Shown here piece after piece: positions 1 through 11,270 of a stretch of DNA of 11,270 nt. The notes below the pieces were generated by a model. That model saw only the letters and a list, made by a program, of their open reading frames with translations, ran no database searches and was not told where the DNA came from. The DNA is from a virus. A program made the translations under genes and the position numbers. The stretch lies in the IMG/VR virus record IMGVR_UViG_3300045988_037349, one strand, 5' to 3'. Numbering within the stretch: position 1 is the stretch's first letter; each line of letters begins with the position of its first letter.

Positions 1-73
1 TAAGAGTAAATAAACATCAACATCCAAAGAATACGAATATGAATATCAAGAAGAAATATGCACAACGACCCCC

Positions 74-115
74 TTTTTAACATTTCCCAACACATTTTTA
101 ACATTCGCCAACAGA
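74..115 (+). repeat. Two tandem 21-bp direct repeats inside the ITR (mirrored at 11156..11197)
   Basis: TTTTTAACATTTCCCAACACA (74..94) is followed directly by TTTTTAACATTCGCCAACAGA (95..115). They match at 18 of 21 positions. The 21-bp period is about two helical turns. Confidence 0.9.
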
Positions 116-149
116 GTTTGGCACGCTTTTTGCATAGGCCGTGCCAAAC
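116..149. repeat. Perfect 10-bp inverted repeat with 14-nt spacer inside the ITR (mirrored at 11122..11155)
   Basis: GTTTGGCACG (116..125) and CGTGCCAAAC (140..149) are exact reverse complements. The spacer is CTTTTTGCATAGGC. Confidence 0.9.
119..135 (+). promoter_or_regulatory. Sigma-54-type -24/-12 consensus match, copy 1 (in ITR); promoter function unproven
   Basis: TGGCACG-CTTT-TTGCAT fits TGGCACG-N4-TTGCW at every conserved position. It is part of the conserved 21-mer TTTGGCACGCTTTTTGCATAG (117..137). Confidence 0.45.
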
Positions 150-189
150 CTCCAAAATCCATGAAAAAACACCTCATCGCAAAATAATT

Positions 190-206
190 TGGCACGCTTT
201 TTGCAT
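190..206 (+). promoter_or_regulatory. Sigma-54-type -24/-12 consensus match, copy 2 (outside ITR)
   Basis: The identical 21-mer TTTGGCACGCTTTTTGCATAG lies at 188..208, 71 bp downstream of copy 1. It points toward the first gene. Confidence 0.45.
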
Positions 207-253
207 AGCTACAAAACAAAAATAAACCTTTTAAGATATTTTAATACTAAAAA

Positions 254-285
254 TTTGCATTAAGCACACAAAGTAACTACCTTTG
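254..285 (+). promoter_or_regulatory. Bacteroidota-type promoter (-33 TTTG / -7 TAnnTTTG) for the early operon
   Basis: TTTG (254..257), then a 20-nt spacer, then TACCTTTG (278..285). An A-rich leader follows up to the ATG at 319. Confidence 0.65.
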
Positions 286-318
286 CAATATCAAAATTAA
301 AAACAAAACATTACAGCA

Positions 319-609
319 ATGAAGTACGGCATATATTTCACACGCTCTAATAGCAACGATGACTACCAAATAAGTACAAAAGGTTGGTACACTGAAACTC
401 CTTACAGCACATTGAAGGCAGCAAAGGCGGCCCTCGAAGGCATTGCGCTTATGCTTAACGAAGACTTTTACAAGTGTACTTACAAAGATAGGTTAACACT
501 TGATGGGGTTAGAACTGACAACATATCGCGAAAGGGTAAAGGTATAGTTATACTACCTCCACCTATAACAGACAAAGTAACATTTAAGATTTGCGTATAT
601 CACTACTAA
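319..609 (+). CDS. Hypothetical early protein (96 aa)
   Basis: First ORF downstream of the 254..285 promoter. It lies on the same strand as all recognisable genes. No motif recognised. Confidence 0.6.
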   Translation: MKYGIYFTRSNSNDDYQISTKGWYTETPYSTLKAAKAALEGIALMLNEDFYKCTYKDRLTLDGVRTDNISRKGKGIVILPPPITDKVTFKICVYHY

Positions 610-620
610 AATATAATACA

Positions 621-872
621 ATGACAACTACAGCGCAAATGTACGATGAGATTGCACACATTTTGCGAGTAACTCGCAACAATGTCGAGTATGAAGCAGA
701 ACGCGACAAATCGCAATTACTTTGTGATGTTGCGACAACGTTAGGCAATTTGGCTACGTTAGTAGACAATATAAGTACAGATATAAAGGCGCGTGAAATC
801 TCGCAAAAGAAAGAGAGTGAGCGAGACACCGCCAATAACTTCTACATGAAGCGTTTCACAAAGCGAGTTTAG
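621..872 (+). CDS. Hypothetical early protein (83 aa, helical, basic C-terminus)
   Basis: The ORF track gives 591..872, but the ATG at 591 overlaps the upstream gene. The ATG at 621 (MTTTAQ...) lies 11 nt after that gene's stop. No motif recognised. Confidence 0.55.
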   Translation: MTTTAQMYDEIAHILRVTRNNVEYEAERDKSQLLCDVATTLGNLATLVDNISTDIKAREISQKKESERDTANNFYMKRFTKRV

Positions 873-887
873 AACCTATTATATAAC

Positions 888-927
888 GTTTCACGTGAAA
901 CAAAATACAAATTGTTTCGCGTGGAAC
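888..927. promoter_or_regulatory. Pair of related 14-bp palindromic sites (candidate operator or phage-specific promoter)
   Basis: GTTTCACGTGAAAC (888..901) is a perfect palindrome. GTTTCGCGTGGAAC (914..927) is a close relative. Their centres are 26 bp apart, in the intergenic gap before the ATG at 946. Confidence 0.5.
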
Positions 928-945
928 ACAAACCAACAAAACGAA

Positions 946-1155
946 ATGAAAAAGAAGATTTTAAAGGGCGTGGGTACATTTCTTTTTTGTATCTCTTACG
1001 TGCTTGTTTTATTCTCTGTGCTTTACGGCCTTTGCATGGCTTTGCAAAGTTGCTCAATGTACCGACAGTCCGACATTAACGGCAGTACAACAATTGTGAC
1101 CACCGACACAACACGCATCAATCACAACACACTTTTAAAATACCAAAAGAAATGA
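946..1155 (+). CDS. Small membrane or secreted protein (69 aa), possible lipoprotein
   Basis: The internal ATG of track ORF 895..1155 gives MKKKILK followed by a long hydrophobic stretch and then ALQSC, which is lipobox-like. The 895 start would sit inside the palindromic sites. The stop overlaps the next ATG (ATGA). Confidence 0.55.
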   Translation: MKKKILKGVGTFLFCISYVLVLFSVLYGLCMALQSCSMYRQSDINGSTTIVTTDTTRINHNTLLKYQKK

Positions 1156-1322
1156 ACGAAGAAAGAAACCAGTTTGACGAAGCGATATTTACCGCTTGTA
1201 CATCACTTGGCCAACTTATGACCACCAAAGAAGTTAATGCGAACACTCGCACACTTTTGAAAATCTCGAAGTTTAGAAACTTCCTGACGAACCTAAGCAA
1301 CGAACACGCACCCCAAAATTAA
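1152..1322 (+). CDS. Hypothetical small protein (56 aa), not in the ORF track
   Basis: I read this by hand: ATG at 1152 to TAA at 1320..1322, giving MNEERNQFDEAIFTACTSLGQLMTTKEVNANTRTLLKISKFRNFLTNLSNEHAPQN. It fills an otherwise empty + strand gap. The ATGA overlap with the upstream stop suggests translational coupling. Confidence 0.5.
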   Translation: MNEERNQFDEAIFTACTSLGQLMTTKEVNANTRTLLKISKFRNFLTNLSNEHAPQN

Positions 1323-1333
1323 AGTACTAAGTT

Positions 1334-1687
1334 ATGACAAGTTTTTCAGAAAAGTACAATAAGGGCAACGAAAACCCCTTTAAGTTTGACCTTAAAGGCT
1401 ACGACTTTACGAGCCTTAAAGAGTTATACAACGCTGACCCTAATAAGGTACACGCGTTAGACGGCTTTTATTTTACACGCGGTAAGTTCGGTGTAAAAGT
1501 CGTGGTTGTGATGTTGGACGTTAAAAAGCGTGTCGATATGCCTATCTACCTAACTAAGGTATTTAATGACATCGTAAATAATACGGACGCTGTAAAAGAC
1601 ATCAAACACGGCAAAGTTGGTTTTGTAGTACGTAAGTACGAGAGTCACGGCCGCAACTGCCATACTATTAGTTTTAAGGACATCTAA
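1334..1687 (+). CDS. Putative ssDNA-binding protein (phi29 p5-like), 117 aa
   Basis: Size and position (just upstream of the terminal protein and polymerase genes) fit. The C-terminal pattern TKVFNDIV...KHGKVGFVVRKYESHGRNCHTISF resembles my recollection of the phi29 p5 C-terminus (SKTV...KVKVVQGTSSKGNVFFSL). A strong terminator follows, as expected for a protein needed in high copy. Confidence 0.4.
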   Translation: MTSFSEKYNKGNENPFKFDLKGYDFTSLKELYNADPNKVHALDGFYFTRGKFGVKVVVVMLDVKKRVDMPIYLTKVFNDIVNNTDAVKDIKHGKVGFVVRKYESHGRNCHTISFKDI

Positions 1688-1700
1688 CAAGTAACACAAT

Positions 1701-1740
1701 TAGGTAGGTAGCATATAACTACCTACCTATTTTAATTTTA
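1701..1740 (+). terminator. Rho-independent terminator or attenuator after the early block
   Basis: Perfect 11-bp stem TAGGTAGGTAG (1701..1711) / CTACCTACCTA (1719..1729) with a 7-nt loop. TTTTAATTTTA follows. Confidence 0.8.
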
Positions 1741-1745
1741 CAGCT

Positions 1746-2384
1746 ATGCCTAACAAGATAGGATACAAACAAAGCGTATTTACTGCAACTCAACGTACAG
1801 AGTTAAGGCAGGACATCATACAAAGCGTTGAGAGTAGCCCTGAACTAAGAAAGGAAGTAAGACGCGTATTTCAGCAAGCAAATAGACGTATACAGAATAT
1901 AGAAGACAAGGGGTTATTAAGTCCCGCAGTAACAGCCTTAAACAAAGGAGATATAAAAGGCTTTAGCAAATTTTCCGTTAGTGGCCAAAGTTGGGACGAA
2001 ATAAAAACAGAGTACGCAAAGGCAGTATCTTTTTTACGTCAGCCAACGAGTACCGCTCAGGGCACACGAACGTATAATGACCACATAAAAACCGCCTACG
2101 GACTTACCGACAAAGAATTTAATTTAATGGTCGGCAAGCTAAACGAAAAGCTAACAAGTTTAAGCGATAGCGATTTTGTAGAAAAATACCTAATGAAGTA
2201 CAAAGATTTTACGGGAGATTTGGAGCAAAGCGCACGAGACGCTAGCGAACAAATTGAAAGTGAAGCAGTAAGCCTACAAAACGCCATAGATAGCAATATC
2301 GAAAGCGAAGCCAACAAACTAACTAACGAAGTCGAAAGTGAGATTAACAGCATATTAGAAGAATTTAATAACTTCGGTTTATGA
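1746..2384 (+). CDS. Candidate terminal protein (212 aa)
   Basis: It lies immediately upstream of the protein-primed PolB and is coupled to it by an ATGA overlap (2381..2384), the same synteny as phi29 gp3-gp2. The N-terminal half is basic (RKEVRRVFQQANRRIQNIEDKG) and the C-terminal half strongly acidic and Ser-rich, like a DNA-mimicking priming domain. Sequence similarity to phi29 terminal protein is weak. Confidence 0.55.
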   Translation: MPNKIGYKQSVFTATQRTELRQDIIQSVESSPELRKEVRRVFQQANRRIQNIEDKGLLSPAVTALNKGDIKGFSKFSVSGQSWDEIKTEYAKAVSFLRQPTSTAQGTRTYNDHIKTAYGLTDKEFNLMVGKLNEKLTSLSDSDFVEKYLMKYKDFTGDLEQSARDASEQIESEAVSLQNAIDSNIESEANKLTNEVESEINSILEEFNNFGL

Positions 2385-4567
2385 AAAAGGTAAAATATGA
2401 GCAACATAGTGGTATTTATAAGGCAACCCACATAAAAGATATTTTGCAGTTGGCCGTAAATGACAAAAACGTAATAGGCAACAATAAAGGGTGTAAATTT
2501 TACAACGTGCCGTGCTCATTTGATATAGAAGTAAGTAGTTTTTATCGAGACGAAGACGGCAACACATACACATACGAGCAGTACACTAAATTAGGTGTAA
2601 AAATGGAAAAATGTGCTATTATGTACGTGTGGCAATTTGGCATAAATGGGTACGTAATAGTTGGCCGTACCTGGGACGAGTTTACAGCCATGTGTAACAC
2701 GATAGCGGCAACTTTGGAGTTATCCACAAACAAAAAACTAATAGTATATATACACAATTTATCATACGAATTCCAGTTTTTGCGCACCCTTTTTGAGTGG
2801 GACAAAGTATTTAGCATTGACCTACGCAAGCCATTATACGCAACTACAACAATAGGCTTAGAATTTAGGTGTAGCTACTTACTAAGCGGCTACAACCTAG
2901 CAAAGTTAGGCGAGCAACTACAAACGTACAAGTGTGCAAAAATGGTTGGAGATTTGGACTACACCAAAATACGCCACACACAAACAAAGTTAACCGATAA
3001 AGAGTTGCTTTACTGCGTAAATGACATAAAAGTAGTAATGAACTACATACAAGAGCAATTGGAGCAAAACAAGTTAATAACAAGATTGCCACTAACTAAA
3101 ACGGGTTATGTACGAAAGCATTGCCGCAAAGCAATGCTAAGCAAAAATGTTAACGGAAAAACCGCCCGAAATTGGGAATGTATTAATTTAATCCAATCAC
3201 TAACTATTTCGGGACTCCACGAATTTAACATGTTGCAAAGGGCTTTTAGTGGCGGATTTACCCACGGCAATGCTAACCACATAGACGAAATATGTGAAGA
3301 CGTTGCAAGTTACGATTTTACGAGTAGTTACCCGTATGTTATGGTGTCCGAAAAATTCCCTATGTCGAGAGGTATAAGGGTGCAACCCCGAAACATGAAA
3401 GAATTTGAGTACTACACAAGTAAGTACCTTTGTATTTTTGACGTGGAATTTACCAACATTTTTGCAAAAGAGTTGCAGGATAACCCTATAAGTGTATCTA
3501 AATGCTTTGTAAAAATAAATCACGTTGAAAATAACGGCCGCTTAGTATGTGCTGCAAAGGTAGCCACTACAATAACTAACATAGACTACAACATAATACG
3601 CAACTTTTACTCGTGGGGCGGTGTCCGTATCGGTGCAATGTATTGTTATAAGGCCGACTATTTACCAACTGATTTTGTACGTACCATTTTGGACCTATAC
3701 GAAAATAAGACAAAGTTAAAAGGCGTGCAAGGAAAAGAAGTGGAGTATTTAAATAGTAAGGAAATGTTAAATAGTTGCTATGGTATGTGTGTTACTAACC
3801 CGTTGCGCGATGAATTTGTATATGATGGGCAATGGGACGAAAACAAACTAACAGAAAGCGAAAAGGCCGAGATGTTACAGAAGTACAACGAAAGTAAAAA
3901 CCGATTTTTGTTTTACCCTTGGGGTGTTTTTGTTACTGCTTATGCAAGGCGCAATTTATTTACTGCAATCTACGAGGCAAAGCAAGATTACATATACAGC
4001 GACACCGACAGCATTAAACTACGTAACGCAGCAGCACATAAGCGGTATTTTGATATGTATAACAATGTAGTATATAACAAATTAAAGGCCGCGTGCAAAC
4101 ATCACAACATAGATTTTGACAAATGTGAACCCGAAACAATTAAAGGTGTTACAAAAACTTTAGGCGTTTGGGACTACGAAGGGACATACAAACGCTTTAA
4201 GACGTTGGGTGCGAAAAGATACATGGTGCAGGCAGAAAACGCCATAAACGTAGGCGGCAAAAGTTATGAATACAGCCTAACAATTAGCGGTGTAAACAAA
4301 AAGGCTGCAATACCCTACCTAGTTAAAAAGTATGGTGACAACATATTTAACGCATTTACGAATTATTTAGAATTTCCGTGCGAAGCCACGGGAAAGAATA
4401 TACATACATACATAGACTACAAAATAAGTGGTGAAGTAACCGACTACACGGGCAAAAAATGTACCTTTGCCGAAAACACGGGTGTACACCTAGAGCCAAC
4501 AAGTTACAACCTATCTTTAAGCGTTATGTACCTTAATTATTTGCAAGGCATAAAGCTAAAAGATTAA
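2381..4567 (+). CDS. Protein-primed family-B DNA polymerase (728 aa)
   Basis: All signature motifs occur in order: ExoI CSFDIEV, ExoII HNLSYEFQF, ExoIII YCVNDIKV, motif A YDFTSSYPYVM, motif B KEMLNSCYGM, motif C YSDTDS (nt 3995..4012), and KxY GAKRYM. Confidence 0.96.
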   Translation: MKKVKYEQHSGIYKATHIKDILQLAVNDKNVIGNNKGCKFYNVPCSFDIEVSSFYRDEDGNTYTYEQYTKLGVKMEKCAIMYVWQFGINGYVIVGRTWDEFTAMCNTIAATLELSTNKKLIVYIHNLSYEFQFLRTLFEWDKVFSIDLRKPLYATTTIGLEFRCSYLLSGYNLAKLGEQLQTYKCAKMVGDLDYTKIRHTQTKLTDKELLYCVNDIKVVMNYIQEQLEQNKLITRLPLTKTGYVRKHCRKAMLSKNVNGKTARNWECINLIQSLTISGLHEFNMLQRAFSGGFTHGNANHIDEICEDVASYDFTSSYPYVMVSEKFPMSRGIRVQPRNMKEFEYYTSKYLCIFDVEFTNIFAKELQDNPISVSKCFVKINHVENNGRLVCAAKVATTITNIDYNIIRNFYSWGGVRIGAMYCYKADYLPTDFVRTILDLYENKTKLKGVQGKEVEYLNSKEMLNSCYGMCVTNPLRDEFVYDGQWDENKLTESEKAEMLQKYNESKNRFLFYPWGVFVTAYARRNLFTAIYEAKQDYIYSDTDSIKLRNAAAHKRYFDMYNNVVYNKLKAACKHHNIDFDKCEPETIKGVTKTLGVWDYEGTYKRFKTLGAKRYMVQAENAINVGGKSYEYSLTISGVNKKAAIPYLVKKYGDNIFNAFTNYLEFPCEATGKNIHTYIDYKISGEVTDYTGKKCTFAENTGVHLEPTSYNLSLSVMYLNYLQGIKLKD

Positions 4568-4571
4568 AAAT

Positions 4572-4585
4572 GTTCCACGTGAAAC
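4572..4585. promoter_or_regulatory. Third copy of the CACGTG-centred 14-bp palindromic site
   Basis: GTTCCACGTGAAAC lies 10 nt upstream of the ATPase ATG, in the 28-nt gap between polymerase and ATPase. It is the reverse complement of the 914..927 site apart from one base. Confidence 0.5.
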
Positions 4586-4595
4586 AATCCAAACA

Positions 4596-5711
4596 ATGAA
4601 GAAAGAAGCAATAAAATTTTACTCGCTCGCAAATATCCTAAACAAAAAGGCAGATTATAACATAATATTCGGTGAGCGCTCAAACGGCAAAACATACGCT
4701 ACTTTGGCGTATGGTATAAAGAAGTATGTACAGACAGGGAAACAAATGGCCTATATACGTAGGTGGCGAGAGGATTTGCGTGGCAAACGTGCCGAAAGTC
4801 TGTTCGCTAACCACGTTGCAAACGGGTATATTGAAGAAGTAACAAATGGAGAATTTAACGCGGTATTTTACTTAGGTAGTAAATGGTATCTTGCAAAATA
4901 CGACCAAGAAAAGAAAAAGTACGTGCCCCAAACCACACCTTTTTGCTATGGCTTTTGCTTGTCAGAGCAAGAGCATGAAAAGAGTAGCAGTTACCCCAAC
5001 GTCACAACGATAGTATTTGATGAGTTTTTAACTCGTCGCTACTACCTACCCGACGAGTTTATGCTGTTTATGAACCTTTTAAGCACCATAATAAGACAGC
5101 GAGACGACGTTAAAGTATTTATGTTGGGTAACACGATTAACAAGTTTTGCCCCTACTTTACCGAAATGGGGTTGAAGCAAGTAACTAACATGGAGCAAGG
5201 CACTATCGACATATACAAGTTTGGGCAACATGGAGCAGTAGTAGCGGTGGAGTATTGCAGCACCATTGTCAAGCAAAAAGCAAGTAACAAGTATTTTTGC
5301 TTTGACAACCAAAACCTTGAAATGATAACCGGGGGCAAGTGGGAAATGGCGGCCTATCCACATTTGCCAACTAAATACACCCCCAAAGACGTGCTTTTTG
5401 TGTATTACATTGTATTCAACGAATACATTTTGCAAGGCAACATTATACAAGCAGGAAACGAAAACTTTACCTACATACACAGGAAGACCACCCCCATAAA
5501 AGACCCCGAAAACGCCCTAATATACAGCCTACACATGAACGGAAAACCGAACTACAAGCGCAAGTTAATAAGCAGTGCGACGTATTTAGAGAGTCAAGTG
5601 GCGCGGTATTTTGCCACCGATAAAGTATTTTACCAAAATAACGAGGTAGGCGAAATTGTGCGAAATTATTTAATGACATCCGCCAAAACCAACATTGTAA
5701 GTATCAAATAA
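4596..5711 (+). CDS. DNA encapsidation (packaging) ATPase, phi29 gp16 family (371 aa)
   Basis: Walker A is FGERSNGKT (nt 4671..4694). The segments AYIRRWREDL, EKSSSYPNVTTIVFDEF (Walker B) and LGNTINKFCPYF run parallel to my recollection of gp16 (GARGIGKS, IYVRRYKPEL, EKSNAYPNVSTIVFDEF, LSNAVSVVNPYF). Confidence 0.93.
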   Translation: MKKEAIKFYSLANILNKKADYNIIFGERSNGKTYATLAYGIKKYVQTGKQMAYIRRWREDLRGKRAESLFANHVANGYIEEVTNGEFNAVFYLGSKWYLAKYDQEKKKYVPQTTPFCYGFCLSEQEHEKSSSYPNVTTIVFDEFLTRRYYLPDEFMLFMNLLSTIIRQRDDVKVFMLGNTINKFCPYFTEMGLKQVTNMEQGTIDIYKFGQHGAVVAVEYCSTIVKQKASNKYFCFDNQNLEMITGGKWEMAAYPHLPTKYTPKDVLFVYYIVFNEYILQGNIIQAGNENFTYIHRKTTPIKDPENALIYSLHMNGKPNYKRKLISSATYLESQVARYFATDKVFYQNNEVGEIVRNYLMTSAKTNIVSIK

Positions 5712-5725
5712 TTTCTGTACATTTG
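5694..5725 (+). promoter_or_regulatory. Bacteroidota-type promoter for the structural block
   Basis: ATTG (5694..5697), then a 20-nt spacer, then TACATTTG (5718..5725). It spans the ATPase 3' end and the intergenic gap, with the -7 box ending 23 nt before the ATG at 5749. Confidence 0.55.
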
Positions 5726-5748
5726 CACTATTAATAACACCTTACACA

Positions 5749-5955
5749 ATGGATATTACACAAGTCACCCAAATAATTTCGAATGTTGGTTTTCCGATTG
5801 CTATGTGTCTAATAGTATTTTACTACATGACAAAGCACGATGAGCAGCATAAGGAAGAAACCGACAACCTACGTACTACCTTAGAGGATAATACCAAGGT
5901 ATTGAGCGAGTTAAGTACCCTAATTAAAACGTTGACGAATGGCAAAGAAAGATAA
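5749..5955 (+). CDS. Small single-pass membrane protein, YvrJ-like; candidate holin (68 aa)
   Basis: The N-terminus IISNVGFPIAMCLIVFYYM resembles the YvrJ family signature (xxNxGFPI plus a TM helix). The C-terminal tail is charged and looks coiled-coil. It overlaps the portal start by 17 nt. Confidence 0.6.
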   Translation: MDITQVTQIISNVGFPIAMCLIVFYYMTKHDEQHKEETDNLRTTLEDNTKVLSELSTLIKTLTNGKER

Positions 5956-6973
5956 CTTGTACCTAAAGTACCAAGAACAGATAAAAGACAAAGATAAAAG
6001 CGTAAATGGCTACATTCGCAAAATGTTAGCCATAACACAAGCAATGTTTGTTTACAAAGGTTTGCCCGAAACATTACCACAGAACACCCTTGAAAACCTA
6101 CTACAGACAAACGGCAATGTTTTTGTTACTGAGGTAGAAGGCAAATTATACGCTTTTAGTGGTGGCCTTGGAGGTGTCCCCAACGCGTACAATGAGGCAA
6201 CCGAATATATTGTAAGTAACCCCTATTTGAAACTCAACAAGTCGTACAAAATAGACGTTGAGGGCGTATTAATTAAAAACGATAGTGGCGCAAATAGCCT
6301 TTTGCCTATTTTTGGCAAATATGGTGTGTTGTGTAGTGATACGCTTGTGTCTCTTAACACATGCTCTGTTCTGTCTCGTATCACTATGTTAATAAGTGCG
6401 AGCGATGACAAGACAAAGCAAAGCGCGGACGATTTTGTAAATAAAATCATGCAGGGCGATTTTTCGGTAATTGGCGAAAACGCATTTTTCAAGGGCGTAA
6501 ACCTGCAAAGTATCAACACACAAAGCGCGAACCAAATAACGCAATTAATTGAGTTATTACAGTACTTCAAGGCGTCTGCATTCAACGAAATAGGCCTAAA
6601 CGCAAACTATAATTTAAAGCGAGAGCGGTTAAACACAAGTGAAGTACAAATGAATGTAGACGCCCTCAACCCTTATGTAGATAATATGTTGCAAGAGCGC
6701 AAAAAGGCAGTAGACAAGATAAACGCCATGTTTGACACTGAAATTAGTGTCGAGTTGGGTAGTAGTTGGGCTATACGCAAAGAAGAAAACAAAACCGAAA
6801 ACGAAGAAAATGAAGATAATAAAAATAATACTTCTGATAGTGGCGAAAGTGCTACTGAACAGAAAGAAGAGGAAGTAACAGAAACGGAAACCGAAATCGA
6901 AACGGACAAAGAAACGGACGAAGAAAAGGAACCCGAAACGGACAAAGAAACGGAAGAAAATGAAAATAATTGA
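5939..6973 (+). CDS. Portal / head-tail connector, phi29 gp10 family, with about 65-aa acidic C-terminal extension (344 aa)
   Basis: Blocks are collinear with my recollection of gp10: FVYKGLPETLPQNTLENLL vs FEWENLPPTINPSFLEKSI; FSGGLGGVPNAYNEATEYIVSNP vs [29 protein letters not shown] vs GVVIYNND; FNEIGLNANYNLKRERLNTSEV vs [20 protein letters not shown]. Confidence 0.85.
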   Translation: MAKKDNLYLKYQEQIKDKDKSVNGYIRKMLAITQAMFVYKGLPETLPQNTLENLLQTNGNVFVTEVEGKLYAFSGGLGGVPNAYNEATEYIVSNPYLKLNKSYKIDVEGVLIKNDSGANSLLPIFGKYGVLCSDTLVSLNTCSVLSRITMLISASDDKTKQSADDFVNKIMQGDFSVIGENAFFKGVNLQSINTQSANQITQLIELLQYFKASAFNEIGLNANYNLKRERLNTSEVQMNVDALNPYVDNMLQERKKAVDKINAMFDTEISVELGSSWAIRKEENKTENEENEDNKNNTSDSGESATEQKEEEVTETETEIETDKETDEEKEPETDKETEENENN

Positions 6974-7529
6974 CCTATACCCCGACCCTAAAAAGGGGCT
7001 ATTTACCGCGGTATTTAAGCCCAACTATCCAACGGAATACGCCGCAATATTTGGCGACCTTGATAGTGTGGGGCTTGATACGCTTGTACTACTCAACTAC
7101 AGCGAGCGAGAGTGTATAAACACCATAACACAAGCAAACGCCAACGAGTATATAAAAAATATCATTGCGTTGAGTGTTAATAATTGGGTACGCGTGGCGA
7201 GTGCCTATAACGCTCAATATGATGTACTTAAACCCGTACAGCAGCAAACAACGAGAGAAGATGAGACCACCGAAAGTGCGAACAATAACAACACAAATGT
7301 TTCGTCTAATAAGCCATACAACGAAACAGATTTTGTAGAGTACGACAAAGATAGTACCACGTACGACAATACACGTACTAACAATGTTGTAAGCACACAA
7401 AAGGTTGTAGGCCTTGGCTCAAAATCACCCACGGACGAACTAACAAAAGAAATAGAATTTAATTTGCAGAATTGGCGAAAAAGCATTATTTTTGCTATTA
7501 TAAATGATATAACTAAATCAATATATTAA
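6960..7529 (+). CDS. Virion-associated protein of unknown role (189 aa); candidate lower collar/adaptor or scaffold
   Basis: It sits between the portal and capsid genes and overlaps the portal by 14 nt. The centre is an N/T-rich low-complexity segment. No motif recognised, so the role is inferred from position only. Confidence 0.4.
   Translation: MKIIDLYPDPKKGLFTAVFKPNYPTEYAAIFGDLDSVGLDTLVLLNYSERECINTITQANANEYIKNIIALSVNNWVRVASAYNAQYDVLKPVQQQTTREDETTESANNNNTNVSSNKPYNETDFVEYDKDSTTYDNTRTNNVVSTQKVVGLGSKSPTDELTKEIEFNLQNWRKSIIFAIINDITKSIY
7463..7494 (+). promoter_or_regulatory. Bacteroidota-type promoter for the major capsid gene, embedded in the upstream CDS
   Basis: TTTG (7463..7466), then a 20-nt spacer, then TATTTTTG (7487..7494). 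This is a full consensus. The -7 box ends 39 nt upstream of the ATG at 7534, with an AT-rich leader. Confidence 0.65.
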
Positions 7530-7533
7530 TTTT

Positions 7534-8706
7534 ATGAACGTAAAACAGATTTACACCCTTGTAAACTCAGTATCTAAAGAGGTTTTAGGTACTGAGGAAC
7601 TAGTAAGCGAGGATTTAACAGGGCTTGTCGACCTTGGCAACGAAGTTTTTAATCAAAACGCGGTAGACAATTACGTTAAATCTCTTGTTAACCATATTGG
7701 TAAGGTGGTTTTTGTAAATCGCCCCTATGCTGGTAAAATTCCGTCTGTACTTATGGACGCTTGGGAATTTGGTTCCGTGCTCGAAAAGATTAGTGCAGAC
7801 TTACCCGAAGCCGTTGAAAATAAAACGTGGGAGTTAACCGACGGGGTGGATTACTCACAAGATGTATTTCATAAGCCAAAAGTTACAGCTAAATTTTTTA
7901 ATAGCAAGGTAACTTTTGAGGTTCCCGTATCTATCACCGAGCGACAAGTTAAGGAGAGTTTCAGCAACGCTGAGCAACTTAACGCATTTCTTTCGATGAT
8001 TTATAACGCGGTGGAGAAGTCCATTACCATTAAGACGGACGCGTTAATTATGCGCACTATTAACAATATGATTGCGCAAACTTTACTCGCTGATAGCGCG
8101 GCCTTTGGCGGTGATGCTGCACCCGACTACACAAGCGCAAGTACCGCTCGTTGCGTTAACTTGCTAAAGTTGTACAACGATAACAAAGGTACTACTTTGA
8201 CCGCTGAAAAGGCACTGACCGACCCCGATTTCATCAAGTTTGCAAGTTATACTATCGGCTTGTACACTGATAGACTTGCAAGTATTTCGAGCGTCTTTAA
8301 TATTGGGGGTAAGCCACGATTTACGCCGCGCGAAAACTTGCACGTTGTGTTACTGTCAGATTTCGAGAAAGCCGCCCGCGCGTATCTCTACAGCGATACA
8401 TACAACAAAGAGCAAGTATTATTACCGAATGCCGAAAGTGTTCCATTTTGGCAGGGTAGCGGAACAAAGTACGATTTTGCAAGCACGGCACATATCAACA
8501 TTAATGAGACTGGCGGAAAACCCGTTAAGATTAGCGGTGTACTTGGTGTTATGTTCGACCGTGACGCATTAGGCGTTTGCAACCTCAACCGCCGCGTTAC
8601 TACTAACTACAACGCAAAGGCGGAGTTCTTCAACAATTACTACAAGTTTGACGCTGGCTATTTCAATGACACTAACGAAAATTTCGTAGTTTTCTTTGTC
8701 GCTTAA
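7534..8706 (+). CDS. Major capsid protein, phi29 gp8 family (HK97 fold), 390 aa
   Basis: Blocks are collinear with my recollection of gp8: [19 protein letters not shown] vs [40 protein letters not shown] vs [30 protein letters not shown] vs [23 protein letters not shown] vs LEAVLVDKDWFMV. A dedicated promoter and a strong terminator flank it, as expected for the most abundant virion protein. Confidence 0.85.
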   Translation: [390 protein letters not shown]

Positions 8707-8725
8707 TTAGTTAATATTGCGGCTC

Positions 8726-8760
8726 AAGGTGGTGTAATATACACCACCTTTTTTAATTTT
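8726..8760 (+). terminator. Rho-independent terminator or attenuator after the capsid gene
   Basis: Perfect 11-bp stem AAGGTGGTGTA (8726..8736) / TACACCACCTT (8740..8750) with a 3-nt loop. TTTTAATTTT follows, so with the TT closing the stem the U-tract has 6 T. Confidence 0.85.
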
Positions 8761-8766
8761 ACTACT

Positions 8767-9207
8767 ATGATACTATATAACTATAAGGGACAACCTAACA
8801 CGATTAACAAAGCGCTTACCCCATTAGGCACTATTAACGTTGCTTTGCGCCCCGAACTAAATGTACATAATCCAACGTTAAAAATACAAATGCCCCCTAA
8901 TATATACGGGTTTAATTACGTTTACTTGGAGGATTTCAGAAAGTACTACTTTGTAGACAATTTTAGATACGTAGGAGGTAATACGTGTTTACTTACTTTG
9001 TCGCTTGATGTACTACAGACGTACCAAGATGTAATACTACAAAGTACCGCGTTAATAGTGGAGAGCGACCACGCAAACCGCGATTTGTCTGTAAATAGCA
9101 ATGTTTTTGACGTTTTCCCTAAAACAGATATTTTGCGGTTTCCTACTTCTAACCTTTTCGATAAGAAGGGCAGCATAATAATGGTAACACTAAAAGGTAA
9201 TAAATAG
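8767..9207 (+). CDS. Tail knob N-terminal-domain homologue (phi29 gp9 N-terminus-like), 146 aa
   Basis: FNYVYLEDFRKYYFVDNFRYVGGNTCLLTLSLDVLQTYQDVILQSTALIVE runs parallel to my recollection of the gp9 N-terminus: [56 protein letters not shown]. Confidence 0.6.
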   Translation: MILYNYKGQPNTINKALTPLGTINVALRPELNVHNPTLKIQMPPNIYGFNYVYLEDFRKYYFVDNFRYVGGNTCLLTLSLDVLQTYQDVILQSTALIVESDHANRDLSVNSNVFDVFPKTDILRFPTSNLFDKKGSIIMVTLKGNK

Positions 9208-9208
9208 T

Positions 9209-11059
9209 ATGGCAGATTATGTTTTGGGTAATTTGGTTAATGATATACCAAATACCACACTAACACAGCGAGACACAGGTAAAACGGAAACGGACAACCA
9301 AGGAGTTACACGCACAATTACAGAAATTACAATAACTTGTGATGATGGGTTCTACTCGCTTAAAGATTGGCAAAACGATTTAAATGGGAAATTTACGTAT
9401 AATGACGCTTTAACGAGTGGCACGCAAGAAGTAAAAACAAAGGTAAACAACTTAAATGTAGGGTGGACTTTCAGCGGCTCTACAAACGCGCTGCCTAACG
9501 TAACAAATAACATAGAGAATACCACCTACAAAATAAGCAAAGCACAACAAGACGTAAGTGTTAACGTTATAGTTGTGACAGCTAACGCAGGGTATCAGTT
9601 TGACGATCCGCCAACGTGCAAATATACTGACGGGTTCGGAGGTGACGCAACAGCAAAAGGTGTTATAAGTCAAAACAAACAAAGCGCAACTTTTACGATA
9701 GAAGACGCCTACAACAAGCGGCCTAACTTCGTTCTAATTGGTGACGTTGTGGAAGGTACGCCAACGATTACCATAACAAATAACTTAGACGGCACAAACG
9801 CTACATATACATACGATAACGGCACTTTTAACATAACAATTAAAGGTACAAACAGCGGCTATGTTATACAAGTGGCCAACGTAACGTACAAAGATAACGG
9901 GGGTGTTTCGCATACTGATAACATGACAATTGCGAGCAGCGACACCGCAACTATCGCATTAACAAATGTAGACACCGCTACACCCGTTGTTATTAATGGC
10001 ACTTACATTAAGGCGATACCCGTAAAAAACACCCTATATAATTGTACGGCCGAAAATATACCAACATATTATACCGCTACCGACAAAGTTAATGTTACAC
10101 TACAAGCAAATGAGGGTAGTAAGTTTACAAGCGAGACAGACCCACCCGAAATAAGATATACTGACGAGTTCGGGGGTGTACAATATAAACGTTTTACGCT
10201 AAGCGATGAAGGCAAACGGGGTAGCATAACACTTGACATTGCAACCGAATGCCCCAAAACTGAGTACATCGAATTTCGTGGAGGGGCAAAAGTTGATGTA
10301 CAGCCAAGCATTAAAAATTATGGTGCTATCAATGTGTATGTAGTTACGCTTGACAACCTCGAAGCGTTTAGCAAAAAACGTTACTTCACAGAAAGCGGCA
10401 CTTTTATTACCTATGAACAAGACCTAAGCGAGTATGTGAACAGAATTAAGCGTATTTATACACATATACCAACAAAAGGCACTGACCGAATAAAATGCGG
10501 CAACTACGATACCGAGATAAACGCAGATTTGCCCGAAAAGGATATAATAACGCTTGATTTTGGCAGTATCACGATACCACGCAAAGATAATACCACACTT
10601 GATAAAGATATGATAATCGAGGTATTTTTGCCGTTCGTGGGTATTGTTTCGCTTTCTTCTGACTACGTTGGTAAATCTGTAAAATTGGTGTACGATATAA
10701 ATGTAATTAGCGGTGACGGGGTTTGTAAATTGTTGGATAATAACGATTTACCGATACAATTACATAACGTACAACCTAATACCGATGTACTTTACACTAC
10801 TTACGACACGTCCGTAATAGGTAACGATAGGTGGGACGCACAAAATTTATATGGCTTTGAGCCGTTTGTGAGGCTGAATTACTACACCAATGAGTACAGC
10901 GATACACGCGGCAACGACTACAAAAAAGTTGTACTTTCGCACTGTGCAAAAGGTTTTTACAAGTTCGATGAGATTGTAAATAATGATATAGACAACGTAC
11001 CAAAAAGTGAGTACACCGAAATTGTTAATTTATTGCAAAGCGGTGTGTTTATAGATTAA
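9209..11059 (+). CDS. Tail protein (616 aa): about four tandem beta-rich repeat modules plus a gp9-like tail knob C-terminal region; probable receptor-binding component
   Basis: It starts 1 nt after the upstream stop. The repeat motif is DPPxx[KR]YTD[GE]FGG, seen as DDPPTCKYTDGFGG and TDPPEIRYTDEFGG. The C-terminal segments IEVFLPFVGIVSLSSDYVGKSVKLVYDINVISGDG and EYTEIVNLLQSGVFID resemble my recollection of gp9 segments [23 protein letters not shown] and DLQEIRTIFDNGITLW. Confidence 0.6.
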   Translation: MADYVLGNLVNDIPNTTLTQRDTGKTETDNQGVTRTITEITITCDDGFYSLKDWQNDLNGKFTYNDALTSGTQEVKTKVNNLNVGWTFSGSTNALPNVTNNIENTTYKISKAQQDVSVNVIVVTANAGYQFDDPPTCKYTDGFGGDATAKGVISQNKQSATFTIEDAYNKRPNFVLIGDVVEGTPTITITNNLDGTNATYTYDNGTFNITIKGTNSGYVIQVANVTYKDNGGVSHTDNMTIASSDTATIALTNVDTATPVVINGTYIKAIPVKNTLYNCTAENIPTYYTATDKVNVTLQANEGSKFTSETDPPEIRYTDEFGGVQYKRFTLSDEGKRGSITLDIATECPKTEYIEFRGGAKVDVQPSIKNYGAINVYVVTLDNLEAFSKKRYFTESGTFITYEQDLSEYVNRIKRIYTHIPTKGTDRIKCGNYDTEINADLPEKDIITLDFGSITIPRKDNTTLDKDMIIEVFLPFVGIVSLSSDYVGKSVKLVYDINVISGDGVCKLLDNNDLPIQLHNVQPNTDVLYTTYDTSVIGNDRWDAQNLYGFEPFVRLNYYTNEYSDTRGNDYKKVVLSHCAKGFYKFDEIVNNDIDNVPKSEYTEIVNLLQSGVFID

Positions 11060-11065
11060 CGGCCT

Positions 11066-11082
11066 ATGCAAATAGCGTGCCA
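11066..11082 (-). promoter_or_regulatory. Sigma-54-type consensus match, right-end internal copy (minus strand, facing inward)
   Basis: The reverse complement reads TGGCACG-CTAT-TTGCAT. The full 24-mer TTTGGCACGCTATTTGCATAGGCC differs from left copy 1 by a single base. Confidence 0.35.
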
Positions 11083-11107
11083 AATGTTTTTGGTACGCTA
11101 TTTTTTT
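11073..11107 (+). terminator. Rho-independent terminator after the last gene
   Basis: 12-bp stem TAGCGTGCCAAA (11073..11084) / TTTGGTACGCTA (11089..11100) with one G-U wobble and a 4-nt loop. Seven T follow (11101..11107). The left arm is part of the right-end internal 21-mer copy. Confidence 0.75.
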
Positions 11108-11116
11108 GTTTATTCG

Positions 11117-11270
11117 TGGAGGTTTGGCACGGCCTATGCAAAAAGCGTGCCAAACTCTGTTGGCGAATGTTAAAAATGTGTTGGGAAATGTTAAAAAGGG
11201 GGTCGTTGTGCATATTTCTTCTTGATATTCATATTCGTATTCTTTGGATGTTGATGTTTATTTACTCTTA
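11117..11270. repeat. Right inverted terminal repeat (154 bp, perfect)
   Basis: Exact reverse complement of 1..154. Together with a protein-primed PolB, this is the classic architecture of terminal-protein-capped linear genomes. Confidence 0.97.
11136..11152 (-). promoter_or_regulatory. Sigma-54-type consensus match, right ITR copy (minus strand, facing inward)
   Basis: This is the ITR mirror image of 119..135. It lies 70 bp from the right-end internal copy, against 71 bp between the two left-end copies. Confidence 0.35.

What the first reader, a model, noticed from the sequence alone, without database searches (positions are those of the whole stretch)
1..11270. Complete ITR-bounded ~11.3-kb protein-primed podovirus genome with a near-minimal phi29-type gene set
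Perfect 154-bp ITRs coincide with both window ends. Between them lie only 13 same-strand genes. These include a protein-primed PolB with a coupled upstream candidate terminal protein, a gp16-type ATPase, a gp10-type portal, a gp8-type capsid protein and a gp9-type knob. No appendage (gp12-like), gp13-like tail lysin or endolysin is seen, and a lower collar is at best the unassigned 189-aa ORF. To my knowledge this size is near the lower limit for tailed dsDNA phages, comparable to Mycoplasma phage P1 and well below phi29 at about 19 kb. Gene order also differs from phi29: replication, then ATPase, then portal, capsid and knob, all unidirectional.
Basis: partly seen in the sequence, partly recalled or inferred. 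Interest (0 to 1): 0.8.

Follow-up and report, generated by a model that had tools for sequence, protein, structure and literature searches.

The report
Complete 11-kb phi29-like gut phage
The window holds the complete linear genome of a very small tailed phage that copies its DNA from a protein primer, but this kind of ~11-kb phage is already described (Astrithrvirus-like phages), hundreds of close relatives sit in gut metagenomes, and the outermost 53 bases at each end are bacterial DNA added by the assembler.

Summary
The window is a complete genome of a phi29-type protein-primed podophage bounded by inverted terminal repeats (ITRs). It carries PolB, a gp16-type ATPase, a gp10-type portal and a phi29-type capsid protein, all on one strand.

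Three corrections:
1. Only nt 54-11217 (11,164 bp) are phage. Window nt 2-55 are identical to an internal bacterial locus. Three independent assemblies of this phage diverge into three different sequences at the same terminal base. Relatives carry Illumina adapters fused directly to 5'-AAATATGCA. The true perfect ITR is 101 bp.
2. It is not near-unique. The 10-gene core is collinear with Astrithrvirus (Salmonella astrithr, Acinetobacter Phanie; PolB 45%, capsid protein 57% identity). IMG/VR holds at least 340 relatives of 10.5-11.9 kb.
3. The knob is split into a 146-aa N-part and a 616-aa protein (four Ig-like domains plus a C-part). A holin-like gene is present. There are 14 genes, not 13.

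Missing Shine-Dalgarno sites and conserved Bacteroidota-type promoters point to a Bacteroidota host.

The lack of an endolysin or fibres is real and clade-wide. Because Phanie needs a helper myophage, a satellite lifestyle is possible but untested.

Verdict: new member of a known kind, of moderate interest.

The parts
1..53 (.). Non-phage overhang: bacterial sequence joined to the left terminus by chimeric reads or the assembler.
   Evidence: Window nt 2-55 are identical to an internal locus of 7 gut contigs. It is absent from all relatives and from IMG/VR.
54..154 (.). Left inverted terminal repeat (101 bp perfect). It starts 5'-AAATATGCAC; the true physical end is at 54 plus or minus 1 nt.
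   Evidence: adapters fused to AAATATGCA in L008, L015, L005. (35 unique ends aligned, with AAA invariant).
74..115 (+). Two tandem 21-nt repeats (TTTTTAACATTYSCCAACA) inside the ITR. Candidate origin or protein-binding element.
   Evidence: I6/I7. Conserved across both gut clades.
119..133 (+). TGGCACG-N4-TTGC motif (sigma-54 -24/-12 consensus), copy 1. It lies inside the palindrome 116-149 and points inward.
   Evidence: 4 perfect copies; 0.66 matches expected by chance at up to 1 mismatch, 7 observed. (conserved about 62-66 nt from the true termini).
190..204 (+). Sigma-54-like motif, copy 2, just inside the ITR.
254..285 (+). Bacteroidota-type promoter (TTTG-N20-TAccTTTG), 34 nt upstream of the first gene.
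   Evidence: The position is conserved in L003, L011, L013 and L016.
319..609 (+). Early gene, 96 aa, function unknown. Lies in the variable left-end region.
   Evidence: 46-61% identity in some close relatives and absent in others. No family hit.
591..872 (+). Early gene, 93 aa from TTG. The ENA annotation calls it from ATG at 639 (77 aa). Function unknown.
895..1155 (+). Small membrane protein: 86 aa from GTG, more likely 69 aa from ATG at 946. One hydrophobic span and a lipobox-like LQSC.
   Evidence: Homologue starts at MKKKIL in L004. Conserved.
1152..1322 (+). Early gene, 56 aa, function unknown.
   Evidence: 76-94% identity in close relatives and 41-51% in the second clade.
1334..1687 (+). 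117-aa conserved protein directly upstream of the terminal-protein candidate. A replication accessory role (SSB- or DSB-like) is inferred from position only.
   Evidence: Conserved out to L089, L091 and L095. No match to phi29 p5 or to PDB.
1701..1729 (+). Terminator-like hairpin plus T-run, ending the early unit.
1746..2384 (+). Candidate terminal protein, 212 aa. Its stop overlaps the PolB start (ATGA).
   Evidence: 33% identity to astrithr gp02. Conserved SPA and TSTxxG motifs. No detectable similarity to phi29 p3.
2381..4567 (+). Protein-primed family-B DNA polymerase, 728 aa. Motifs read in the translation: FDIE, DFTSSYP, KemLNSCYG, YSDTDS, KRY.
   Evidence: PF03175 2.8e-12. phrog_1907 6e-71. 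44.7% identity to astrithr PolB. Motifs read.
4596..5711 (+). gp16-type DNA-packaging ATPase, 371 aa. Walker A GERSNGKT, Walker B IVFDE.
   Evidence: PF05894 3.6e-22. phrog_2150 2.4e-34. 52-53% identity to astrithr and Phanie.
5749..5955 (+). 68-aa protein with an N-terminal transmembrane span and a coiled-coil tail. Holin-like, possibly spanin-like.
   Evidence: phrog_4898 holin 7e-12 and phrog_739 Rz-like 0.0045. Transmembrane span at 6-27. Syntenic with astrithr gp05.
5939..6973 (+). gp10-type portal (upper collar), 344 aa, with an acidic low-complexity C-terminal tail of about 60 aa.
   Evidence: PF05352 2.1e-14. phrog_2038 4.8e-35. Repeats D1/D4.
6960..7529 (+). 189-aa protein, probable small lower collar/adaptor. 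Not proven.
   Evidence: Syntenic with astrithr and Phanie gp07. hhalign against Phanie gp07 gives E 5.5e-4. The BFVD list includes weak collar-protein hits. No PDB hit.
7463..7494 (+). Second Bacteroidota-type promoter, 40 nt upstream of the capsid gene.
7534..8706 (+). phi29-type major capsid protein, 390 aa.
   Evidence: PF25622 1.6e-54. 56-58% identity to astrithr and Phanie.
8726..8750 (+). Terminator-like hairpin after the capsid gene.
8767..9207 (+). 146-aa protein corresponding to the N-terminal part of the phi29 gp9 tail knob (tube-like domain).
   Evidence: The top three PDB profile hits are tail knobs: C1 4eo2 (0.009), phi29 5fb4 (0.024), Andhra 8egs. hhalign against gp9 residues 91-177 gives E 2.3e-4, with a shared DVLQT motif. 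phrog_2248 tail.
9209..11059 (+). 616-aa distal tail protein: four tandem Ig-like domains (about residues 9-345) plus a conserved C-terminal domain homologous to the astrithr and Phanie gp10 C-part of the knob.
   Evidence: AlphaFold2 pLDDT 79.5. Foldseek finds tandem Ig repeats. hhalign against astrithr gp10 gives E 4e-12 and against Phanie gp10 5e-8. No enzymatic domain.
11068..11082 (-). Sigma-54-like motif, right-end copy 2. It points inward and lies within the terminator-like palindrome 11070-11103.
11117..11217 (.). Right inverted terminal repeat (101 bp). It contains sigma-54-like copy 1 at 11138-11152 on the - strand.
11218..11270 (.). Non-phage overhang, the mirror image of nt 1-53.

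Best explanation
Window nt 54-11217 (11,164 bp) are the complete linear genome of an uncultured phi29-like podophage. It belongs to the Astrithrvirus-like group of ~11-kb phages of Gram-negative bacteria, comes from the gut, and most likely infects a member of the Bacteroidota.

Proposed mechanism:
- Replication (inferred from phi29 biology). The 212-aa protein primes replication with the 728-aa PolB at both 101-bp ITRs. The terminal AAA allows phi29-style sliding-back.
- Transcription (inferred from sequence motifs). It runs rightward from a Bacteroidota-type promoter at 254-285 through early genes 319-1687. It continues through a replication/packaging/head block (1746-8706) and a tail block (8767-11059), each closed by a hairpin terminator.
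- Assembly (domains shown, assembly inferred). The gp16-type ATPase packages terminal-protein-linked DNA through the gp10-type portal into a phi29-type capsid. The short tail is built from the 189-aa collar candidate and a two-gene knob (146 aa plus 616 aa), whose four Ig-like domains face outward.
- Lysis and adsorption (open). There is a holin-like protein but no endolysin, fibre or spike. I lean towards autonomous replication and packaging. There is a sizeable chance that entry and/or lysis depend on a co-infecting helper phage, as in Acinetobacter phage Phanie.

The 53 nt beyond each terminus are bacterial DNA from a chimeric assembly.
For: - Hallmark genes: four Pfam hits above threshold and matching PHROG hits.
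- Synteny and identity with astrithr and Phanie: 10 syntenic genes. PolB 45%, ATPase 53%, portal 40%, capsid protein 57%, terminal-protein candidate 33%, 146-aa protein 34%. C-part of the knob E 4e-12.
- Relatives: at least 340 in IMG/VR, almost all whole contigs of 10.6-12 kb. 47 of 68 contigs of at least 10 kb have terminal inverted repeats. Terminus-to-terminus lengths are 10,545-11,944 bp.
- Termini: adapters fused to AAATATGCA. Three assemblies give three different continuations after the same base.
- Overhang: identical to an internal bacterial locus.
- Host signals: no Shine-Dalgarno sequence before any of the 14 genes. TTTG-N20-TAnnTTTG promoters sit at conserved positions.
- Split knob.
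- Missing functions: no lysin, fibre or spike in Pfam, PHROGs or NCBIfam, nor by tblastn with phi29 gp12, gp13 and gp15 or five relatives' lysins.
Against: - The terminal-protein assignment rests on position and on homology to an equally uncharacterised astrithr protein. There is no similarity to phi29 p3.
- The lower-collar assignment is weak.
- The C-part of the knob shows no direct match to phi29 gp9 here. The link to gp9 comes from structure comparisons reported in PMC11476376.
- The host is inferred from expression signals only. MAG bins that hold relatives carry many different names.
- The exact terminal base is uncertain by 1 nt. All three assemblies show a G before AAATATG, while relatives with adapters start at A.
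- No scaffolding protein or pRNA was identified.
Confidence: 0.85

Rival explanations
1. Helper-dependent satellite podophage. It replicates and packages its own DNA, but its virions are infectious only after docking onto the tail of an unrelated co-infecting phage, which may also supply lysis. This is what is reported for Acinetobacter phage Phanie. It is a rival on lifestyle, not on identity.
For: - It has the same architecture as Phanie: a split knob with laterally placed Ig-like domains and no fibre or spike (PMC11476376 section 2.6, citing Pourcel 2024).
- No recognisable endolysin was found among the loci sampled from the two gut clades, apart from L013. This rests on tblastn with five known lysins against all loci, plus Pfam and PHROG scans of the ten largest of the 73 non-core ORF clusters.
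- The knob module is swapped between otherwise 93-95% identical genomes.
- One relative (L089) carries an HK97-gp10/Neck1-type tail-completion gene typical of long-tailed phages.
- The astrithr isolates came from a crude screening in which purity was not ensured (bioRxiv 10.1101/2020.03.27.011080).
Against: - Phanie keeps its own amidase, so loss of the endolysin is not part of the known satellite syndrome.
- No helper was identified and no co-occurrence analysis was possible.
- The primary Phanie paper could not be read.
- Ig-like arrays could themselves bind receptors.
Confidence: 0.3
2. An integrated or transposing element, or a linear plasmid, rather than a free phage genome. The argument is that contigs exist in which the sequence continues into bacterial genes on both sides.
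For: The ENA contig k141_156845 (33.9 kb) carries the element between a secA fragment and a lysA-like fragment. L106 and the window itself also continue into bacterial sequence.
Against: - The flanks differ in all three assemblies and are mid-gene fragments.
- The left junction in the 33.9-kb contig is inside the ITR (window 143), not at the terminus.
- No integrase or transposase is present.
- Sequencing adapters are fused exactly to the terminus in several relatives, which shows free DNA ends.
- Dozens of relatives end at that base.
Confidence: 0.03
3. The ITR is purely an assembler artefact and the contig is an incomplete or mis-joined fragment.
For: The outer 53 nt of the 'ITR' are indeed an artefact duplicated at both ends. 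De Bruijn assemblers collapse inverted repeats, so the perfect identity of the two arms is partly by construction (inference).
Against: - The inner 101 nt are conserved in sequence and layout at both ends of 35 distinct relatives' termini.
- Imperfect homology continues inward to about nt 208 with arm-specific differences, which no assembler would create.
- The gene complement matches complete isolate genomes.
Confidence: 0.03

Closest known systems
Astrithrvirus astrithr (Salmonella phages astrithr, Astrid, assan; 11.6-11.7 kb) and allied isolates (Pectobacterium DU_PP_III, Enterobacter Entb_47, Shigella vB_SHGBLB0004, Vibrio K58 g2)
   Same: - Genome size is about 10.4-11.9 kb.
- The core is collinear: terminal-protein candidate, PolB, ATPase, about 65-aa membrane protein, portal, about 185-aa protein, capsid protein, about 146-aa knob N-part, large knob C-part.
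- No fibres or spikes (PMC11476376).
   Different: - Only 33-57% amino-acid identity and no nucleotide match.
- The window has no endolysin after the tail gene and no leftward genes at the right end.
- It has five rightward early genes at the left end instead.
- The ITR is 101 bp, against 18 bp in the astrithr record.
- Expression signals are Bacteroidota-type rather than enterobacterial.
Acinetobacter phage Aci01-2-Phanie (11,885 bp)
   Same: - The same core order.
- An ITR of similar size (171 bp).
- A split knob whose large subunit carries tandem Ig-like domains. C-part homology E 5e-8.
   Different: - Phanie has an amidase and two leftward genes.
- Its helper dependence is shown experimentally (Pourcel 2024, as summarised in PMC11476376), whereas nothing is known for the window.
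- Its gp10 is 854 aa, with six Ig-like domains according to the review.
Bacillus phage phi29 (Salasmaviridae, 19.3 kb)
   Same: - Protein-primed PolB, gp16-type ATPase, gp10-type portal, gp8-type capsid protein, and the N-domain motif of the gp9 knob.
- A terminal AAA, as in phi29's AAAGTA.
   Different: - phi29 has divergent early and late operons, a 6-bp ITR and a single-gene knob.
- It also has gp11, gp12, gp13, gp14, gp15, a scaffold gp7, a head fibre and a pRNA.
- None of gp12, gp13, gp15 or the pRNA is found in the window.
Bacteriophage sp. isolate 2692_55609 (12,148 bp; predicted Bacteroidales host; cluster 30 of Evseev et al. 2024)
   Same: A small phi29-like genome from human faeces with a predicted Bacteroidales host and a split knob (PMC11476376).
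   Different: It was not compared directly here. The nearest 'Bacteriophage sp.' faecal records in the phage collection share only about 30-36% PolB identity with the window. The window's clade is therefore closer to Astrithrvirus than to these.
   Same: Similar genome size. It is listed alongside astrithr as one of the two smallest isolated tailed phages (PMC7762592).
   Different: No P1 record appeared among the 30 listed PolB matches (109 further records were not shown). No direct comparison was made.

Membership tests
phi29-like protein-primed podophages (Salasmaviridae and allies) | Protein-primed family-B DNA polymerase | tested here: met
   PF03175 2.8e-12 and phrog_1907 6e-71. Exo and Pol motifs were read.
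phi29-like protein-primed podophages (Salasmaviridae and allies) | Linear genome with inverted terminal repeats and a reiterated terminal base | tested here: met
   101-bp ITR starting AAA.
phi29-like protein-primed podophages (Salasmaviridae and allies) | Terminal protein covalently linked to the 5' ends | not testable with these tools
   There is only a positional candidate (1746-2384), coupled to PolB. It shows no similarity to phi29 p3.
phi29-like protein-primed podophages (Salasmaviridae and allies) | gp16-type packaging ATPase, gp10-type portal and phi29-type major capsid protein | tested here: met
   PF05894 3.6e-22, PF05352 2.1e-14 and PF25622 1.6e-54.
phi29-like protein-primed podophages (Salasmaviridae and allies) | gp9-type tail knob | tested here: inconclusive
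   The N-part is supported. The C-part has no direct match to gp9. It is linked only through astrithr and Phanie gp10 and the review's structural comparison.
phi29-like protein-primed podophages (Salasmaviridae and allies) | Lower collar (gp11) | tested here: inconclusive
   For the 189-aa ORF: hhalign against gp11 gives E 0.09. There is no PDB fold match. BFVD gives weak collar hits.
phi29-like protein-primed podophages (Salasmaviridae and allies) | Prohead RNA (pRNA) | tested here: not met
   No Rfam hit at E up to 1. The left non-coding region is unstructured, z 0.13. pRNA is known only from Bacillus phages (PMC11476376), so this does not exclude membership of the wider group.
phi29-like protein-primed podophages (Salasmaviridae and allies) | Appendages (gp12), tail lysin (gp13) and endolysin (gp15) | tested here: not met
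   No hits by tblastn, Pfam, PHROGs or NCBIfam.
Astrithrvirus-like ~11-kb phages (cluster 23 of Evseev et al. 2024) | Genome of 11-14 kb with the collinear core from terminal-protein candidate to split knob | tested here: met
Astrithrvirus-like ~11-kb phages (cluster 23 of Evseev et al. 2024) | Major-capsid-protein similarity that defines the cluster | tested here: inconclusive
   56-58% identity to the astrithr and Phanie capsid proteins. The review's clustering threshold was not reproduced.
Genus Astrithrvirus (ICTV) | At least about 70% nucleotide identity across the genome (the usual ICTV genus criterion; my own knowledge) | tested here: not met
   No megablast match to any phage record. 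PolB identity is 44.7%.
Astrithrvirus-like ~11-kb phages (cluster 23 of Evseev et al. 2024) | Endolysin downstream of the knob gene and leftward early genes at the right end | tested here: not met
   Only 158 nt separate the knob stop codon from the terminus. No lysin was found.
Helper-dependent satellite phages of the Phanie type | Infectivity requires binding to a helper phage's tail | not testable with these tools
   Only shared architecture is available as evidence.

The most novel reading that the evidence does not exclude
The abundant gut clade to which this genome belongs lacks a recognisable endolysin and any receptor-binding fibre or spike. It could consist of obligate satellite podophages of Bacteroidota. 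Such phages would replicate and package autonomously but borrow the tail, and perhaps the lysis functions, of a co-infecting long-tailed phage, as Phanie does in Acinetobacter. In addition, the perfectly conserved TGGCACG-N4-TTGC motifs inside both ITRs could be genuine sigma-54 promoters. Early transcription from the genome ends would then depend on the host's RpoN and an enhancer-binding protein.
Probability: 0.2. Interest if true: 0.7.

Novelty: new member of a known kind. Interest (0 to 1): 0.35.

Why it matters
As a genome it adds one more member, at roughly new-genus or higher distance, to an already recognised group of minimal tailed phages. It does not set a size record: GenBank holds relatives of 10.4-11.2 kb, and the same gut clade spans 10.5-11.9 kb.

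Its value lies elsewhere:
- It documents that a large, uncharacterised and apparently Bacteroidota-associated branch of this group is common in gut metagenomes.
- That branch lacks a recognisable endolysin and adsorption proteins, which makes it a good test case for how widespread Phanie-type helper dependence is.
- The exact physical termini can be read from adapter fusions and chimeric junctions in public assemblies.
- ITR-based 'completeness' calls can include k-1 nt of foreign DNA at both ends.

Tried and rejected
- pRNA: no Rfam hit at E up to 1. The only sizeable non-coding stretch (145-318) folds no better than shuffles. No tRNA.
- Terminal-protein family against phi29 p3 and against PDB: nothing significant.
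- 117-aa family against phi29 p5 SSB, astrithr gp13 and gp15, and PDB: nothing. The SSB idea remains a positional guess.
- 189-aa protein against phi29 gp11 and PDB, by sequence and by fold: nothing significant.
- One search is circular, because the target is a member of the profile. I discard it. The non-circular tests are.
- 616-aa protein against phi29 gp9, by profile and by fold: no hit. Ig-like repeats dominate the Foldseek list.
- Hidden endolysin: Pfam, PHROGs and NCBIfam on all unassigned ORFs. Also tblastn with five relatives' lysins and phi29 gp13 and gp15. All negative.
- Prophage or transposon reading of the 33.9-kb ENA contig: rejected, because the flanks are mid-gene fragments and differ between assemblies.
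- Host from MAG bin names: rejected as unreliable. The names range over Prevotella, Scatosoma, Gastranaerophilales, Clostridia and others.
- The primary Phanie paper (PMC11264900) is not held. Its findings are cited only through PMC11476376.

Full report
**Observation.** The two ends of the window are exact reverse complements for 154 nt. Similarity continues at 96% to nt 169 and at 77% to about nt 208. Fourteen ORFs on the + strand fill 319-11059. All 14 are conserved in the closest metagenomic relatives. GC content is 35-46%, with no compositional break.

**The ends.** The outer 53 nt of each arm are not phage DNA. Four lines of evidence show this.
- A 36-mer from window nt 6-41 occurs in seven unrelated gut contigs of 6-102 kb. 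Alignment shows window nt 2-55 to be identical to an internal locus there. That locus is the upstream region and first codons of a gene beginning MNIKKTIGALMMCAIS. Beyond it, those contigs and the window diverge completely.
- The same phage was assembled at least twice more. ENA contig k141_156845 (33.9 kb) matches window 143-11218 at 99.98% and then runs into a lysA-like fragment. On its left it is joined, inside the ITR, to a truncated secA.
- ENA NODE_3489 matches window 1369-11218 at 100% and then runs into an M23-peptidase-like sequence. That gives three assemblies with three different continuations after the same base.
- In relatives the Illumina adapter ...GCTCTTCCGATCT is fused directly to AAATATGCA (L008 at both ends, L015, L005). 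In the sister clade it is fused to AAAGGTACGC (L038, L040). Many contigs simply begin there.

The motif AAATATGCAC starts at window nt 54. The genome is therefore nt 54-11217, or 11,164 bp (plus or minus 1 nt at each end), with a 101-bp perfect ITR. An overhang of 53-54 nt equals k-1 for k=55. A collapsed ITR node would mirror it at both ends. That last step is my inference.

**What it is.** Pfam gives four hits above threshold, and PHROGs agree:

| Protein | Pfam family | E-value |
|---|---|---|
| DNA polymerase | DNA_pol_B_2 | 2.8e-12 |
| Packaging ATPase | Podovirus_Gp16 | 3.6e-22 |
| Portal | Phage_connector | 2.1e-14 |
| Major capsid protein | Phi29_MCP | 1.6e-54 |

- The polymerase shows the Exo I, A, B, C and KxY motifs, and the ATPase shows Walker A and B (read).
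- There is no nucleotide match to any GenBank phage.
- By protein, the best PolB matches are Salmonella phages astrithr, Astrid and assan (44.7%). They are followed by Enterobacter Entb_47, Pectobacterium DU_PP_III, Acinetobacter Phanie, Vibrio K58 g2 (10,390 bp) and Shigella vB_SHGBLB0004 (11,151 bp).
- The annotated astrithr and Phanie genomes have the same core order. This runs: about 200-aa protein, PolB, ATPase, about 65-aa protein, portal, about 185-aa protein, capsid protein, about 146-aa protein, large tail protein.
- Identities to the window are 33% for the terminal-protein candidate, 52-53% for the ATPase, 40% for the portal, 56-58% for the capsid protein and 34% for the 146-aa protein.

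**How common it is.** A scan of IMG/VR with the capsid protein found 340 relatives. Of the best 80, nearly all are whole contigs of 10.6-12 kb. Among contigs of at least 10 kb, 47 of 68 carry exact terminal inverted repeats. Where both terminal motifs are present, terminus-to-terminus lengths are 10,545-11,944 bp, with a median of 11,559. The exact proteins are also present in JGI, ENA and Logan assemblies, named only 'hypothetical protein'. The 90%-identity PolB cluster has 267 members. The tail protein has 416 database relatives.

The literature already treats this kind:
- Astrithr (11.6 kb) and Mycoplasma P1 (11.7 kb) are cited as the smallest isolated tailed phages (PMC7762592).
- Evseev et al. 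2024 (PMC11476376, section 2.6) describe the astrithr/DU_PP_III/Phanie cluster plus a faecal genome with a predicted Bacteroidales host. They report genomes of 11-14 kb, a small lower collar, a tail knob encoded by two genes and no fibres or spikes.

**Tail.**
- The 146-aa family's three best PDB hits by profile are the tail knobs of phages C1, phi29 and Andhra. hhalign places it on phi29 gp9 residues 91-177 (E 2.3e-4), with a shared YxFV...DVLQT motif.
- The AlphaFold2 model of the 616-aa protein (pLDDT 79.5) has four tandem beta-sandwich domains (about residues 9-345) and a C-terminal domain. Foldseek returns tandem Ig-like repeats and no enzyme fold.
- Its C-terminal 200-295 residues are homologous to the C-terminal parts of astrithr gp10 (E 4e-12) and Phanie gp10 (E 5e-8). 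The review equates that region structurally with the C-part of gp9. I could not show this link directly.
- The 189-aa protein is the positional counterpart of astrithr and Phanie gp07. Sequence support is weak: E 5.5e-4 against Phanie and 0.29 against astrithr. Its model has a confident helical N-domain and an unmodelled middle. There is no PDB match. BFVD returns two unnamed viral proteins (probability 0.99), then weak hits to 'collar' proteins of phi29-like phages. 'Lower collar' is therefore likely but unproven.

**Replication.** The 212-aa gene overlaps the PolB start by ATGA, and its family has conserved SPA and TSTxxG motifs. It shows no similarity to phi29 p3, so the terminal-protein role is inferred. 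The termini begin with AAA, and with AAAG in the sister clade. This resembles phi29's AAAGTA and is compatible with sliding-back initiation, which is established phi29 biology but inferred here.

An alignment of 35 distinct termini shows an almost invariant layout:
- AAA;
- CCC-TTTTTAAC;
- TTTCCCAAC;
- TTTTTAAC;
- GCCAAC;
- TTTGGCACG-N-TTTTTGC;
- a second TTTGGCACG...TTTGC about 65 nt further in.

**Expression and host.**
- None of the 14 genes has a Shine-Dalgarno sequence.
- Full Bacteroidota-type promoters (TTTG-N18-22-TAnnTTTG; the consensus is from my own knowledge) lie at 254-285, upstream of gene 1, and at 7463-7494, upstream of the capsid gene. Three such sites occur in the window against 0.75 expected. 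The two + strand positions recur in L003, L011 and L013, and the first also in L016.
- Strong hairpin terminators follow the early block, the capsid gene and the tail gene.
- Together these point to a Bacteroidota host. MAG bin names for relatives are contradictory and were not used.

**Lysis and adsorption.**
- A 68-aa protein with a transmembrane span and coiled coil matches a holin PHROG (7e-12) and, weakly, an Rz-like spanin.
- A 69-86-aa membrane protein has a lipobox-like LQSC.
- No endolysin, tail lysin, fibre or spike was found in the window by any library or by tblastn.
- The absence holds across the clade as far as tested. Of the 73 clusters of non-core ORFs in the relatives, I scanned the ten largest with Pfam and PHROGs, and all loci by tblastn with five known lysins. 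Lysins occur only sporadically: Amidase_2 in L013, M15 in L086 and L087, and CHAP/CW_7 in L090 and L095.
- The knob module is exchanged between otherwise 93-95% identical genomes.
- Phanie is reported to be infectious only when attached to the tail of a helper myophage (Pourcel 2024, via PMC11476376). The astrithr isolates came from a crude screening (bioRxiv 10.1101/2020.03.27.011080). A helper-dependent lifestyle is therefore a live possibility, which I put at about 0.3, but nothing here tests it.

**Verdict.** The finding is real and correctly identified. It is a new, fairly distant member of a known kind rather than a near-unique minimal phage, and its stated ITR and genome length are inflated by an assembly chimera. 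Interest is moderate. It rests mainly on the clade-wide absence of lysis and adsorption genes and on the conserved ITR motifs.

Noticed in passing
window 119-133 (+), 190-204 (+), 11068-11082 (-), 11138-11152 (-): Four perfect copies of TGGCAC-N5-TTGC, with extended sequence TTTGGCACGCT(T/A)TTTGCATAG. This is the sigma-54 -24/-12 consensus. Two copies sit at each end and all point inward. Counting up to 1 mismatch, 7 sites are seen against 0.66 expected. The motif is nearly invariant, at about 62-66 nt and about 120-135 nt from the true termini, in both gut clades. It is absent from astrithr and Phanie. It could be a sigma-54 promoter or a binding site for a phage or origin protein. Copy 1 lies in a palindrome in the window's clade only.
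   Followed up: partly
window 1-53 and 11218-11270; L098-L104: The overhang at both window ends is an exact copy of a bacterial intergenic region and gene start (MNIKKTIGALMMCAISAIPMMAQQ...). Its length is about k-1 for k=55. ITR-based completeness calls can therefore carry foreign DNA mirrored at both ends.
   Followed up: yes
L008, L015, L005, L038, L040, L045, L052, L069, L081 (IMG/VR contigs): Untrimmed Illumina TruSeq or Nextera adapter sequence remains at the ends of several public IMG/VR contigs. In L008 it is counted as part of a 209-nt 'ITR'. Where the adapter abuts the phage, it marks the physical terminus.
   Followed up: partly
L096/L105 (ENA ERZ27272161 k141_156845, 33.9 kb): A chimeric MEGAHIT contig joins about 21.7 kb of bacterial DNA (MatE, HSP20, GGDEF, truncated SecA) to the phage inside its left ITR (window 143). 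It also joins a lysA-like fragment to the right terminus.
   Followed up: yes
window 6786-6970 (portal codons about 283-344): The portal ends in an acidic low-complexity tail of about 60 aa (ENEENEDNK...TETETEIETDKETDEEKEPETDKETEENENN), encoded by degenerate 12-nt tandem repeats. No scaffolding gene was identified, so the tail may be relevant to assembly. This is speculation.
   Followed up: no
window 8767-11059 compared with L004, L008, L012: Genomes that are 93-95% identical to the window in PolB, ATPase, portal and capsid protein carry a knob module (both genes) only 31-40% identical to it. This indicates modular exchange of the distal tail.
   Followed up: partly
L089 8729-9118: A more distant ~11.5-kb relative encodes an HK97-gp10-like / Neck1 tail-completion protein (PF04883 1.4e-13; phrog_5 5.5e-16) between the capsid and knob genes. 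This component is typical of long-tailed phages.
   Followed up: no
L013 10537-10941; L086 10308-10733 (-); L087 10655-11077 (-); L090 4489-5226; L095 10439-11050: Endolysins of at least three unrelated types (Amidase_2; Peptidase_M15_3; CHAP/ELLD plus CW_7) occur sporadically at the right end of relatives. Most sampled genomes of the two gut clades show none. The CW_7 repeats suggest that L090 and L095 infect Gram-positive hosts.
   Followed up: partly
window 946-1155: A small conserved early protein (69 aa from the ATG) has a long hydrophobic N-terminus and a lipobox-like LQSC. It may be a lipoprotein, either o-spanin-like or a superinfection-exclusion protein.
   Followed up: no
window 1725-1748 and 8746-8769: The same motif, (C/T)TTTTAATTTTAC-N3-TATG, directly follows two hairpin terminators. 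It directly precedes the start codons of the terminal-protein candidate and of the 146-aa knob gene. It may be a re-initiation or translation signal in a genome without Shine-Dalgarno sites.
   Followed up: no
window 319-872 compared with L004, L006, L007, L011, L013-L016: The first two genes are the least conserved (44-88% identity where present) and are missing from several otherwise near-identical genomes. In the sister clade, two conserved leftward ORFs (about 90 and 117-134 aa) sit at the right end instead. The accessory early genes therefore occupy different ends in different clades.
   Followed up: partly
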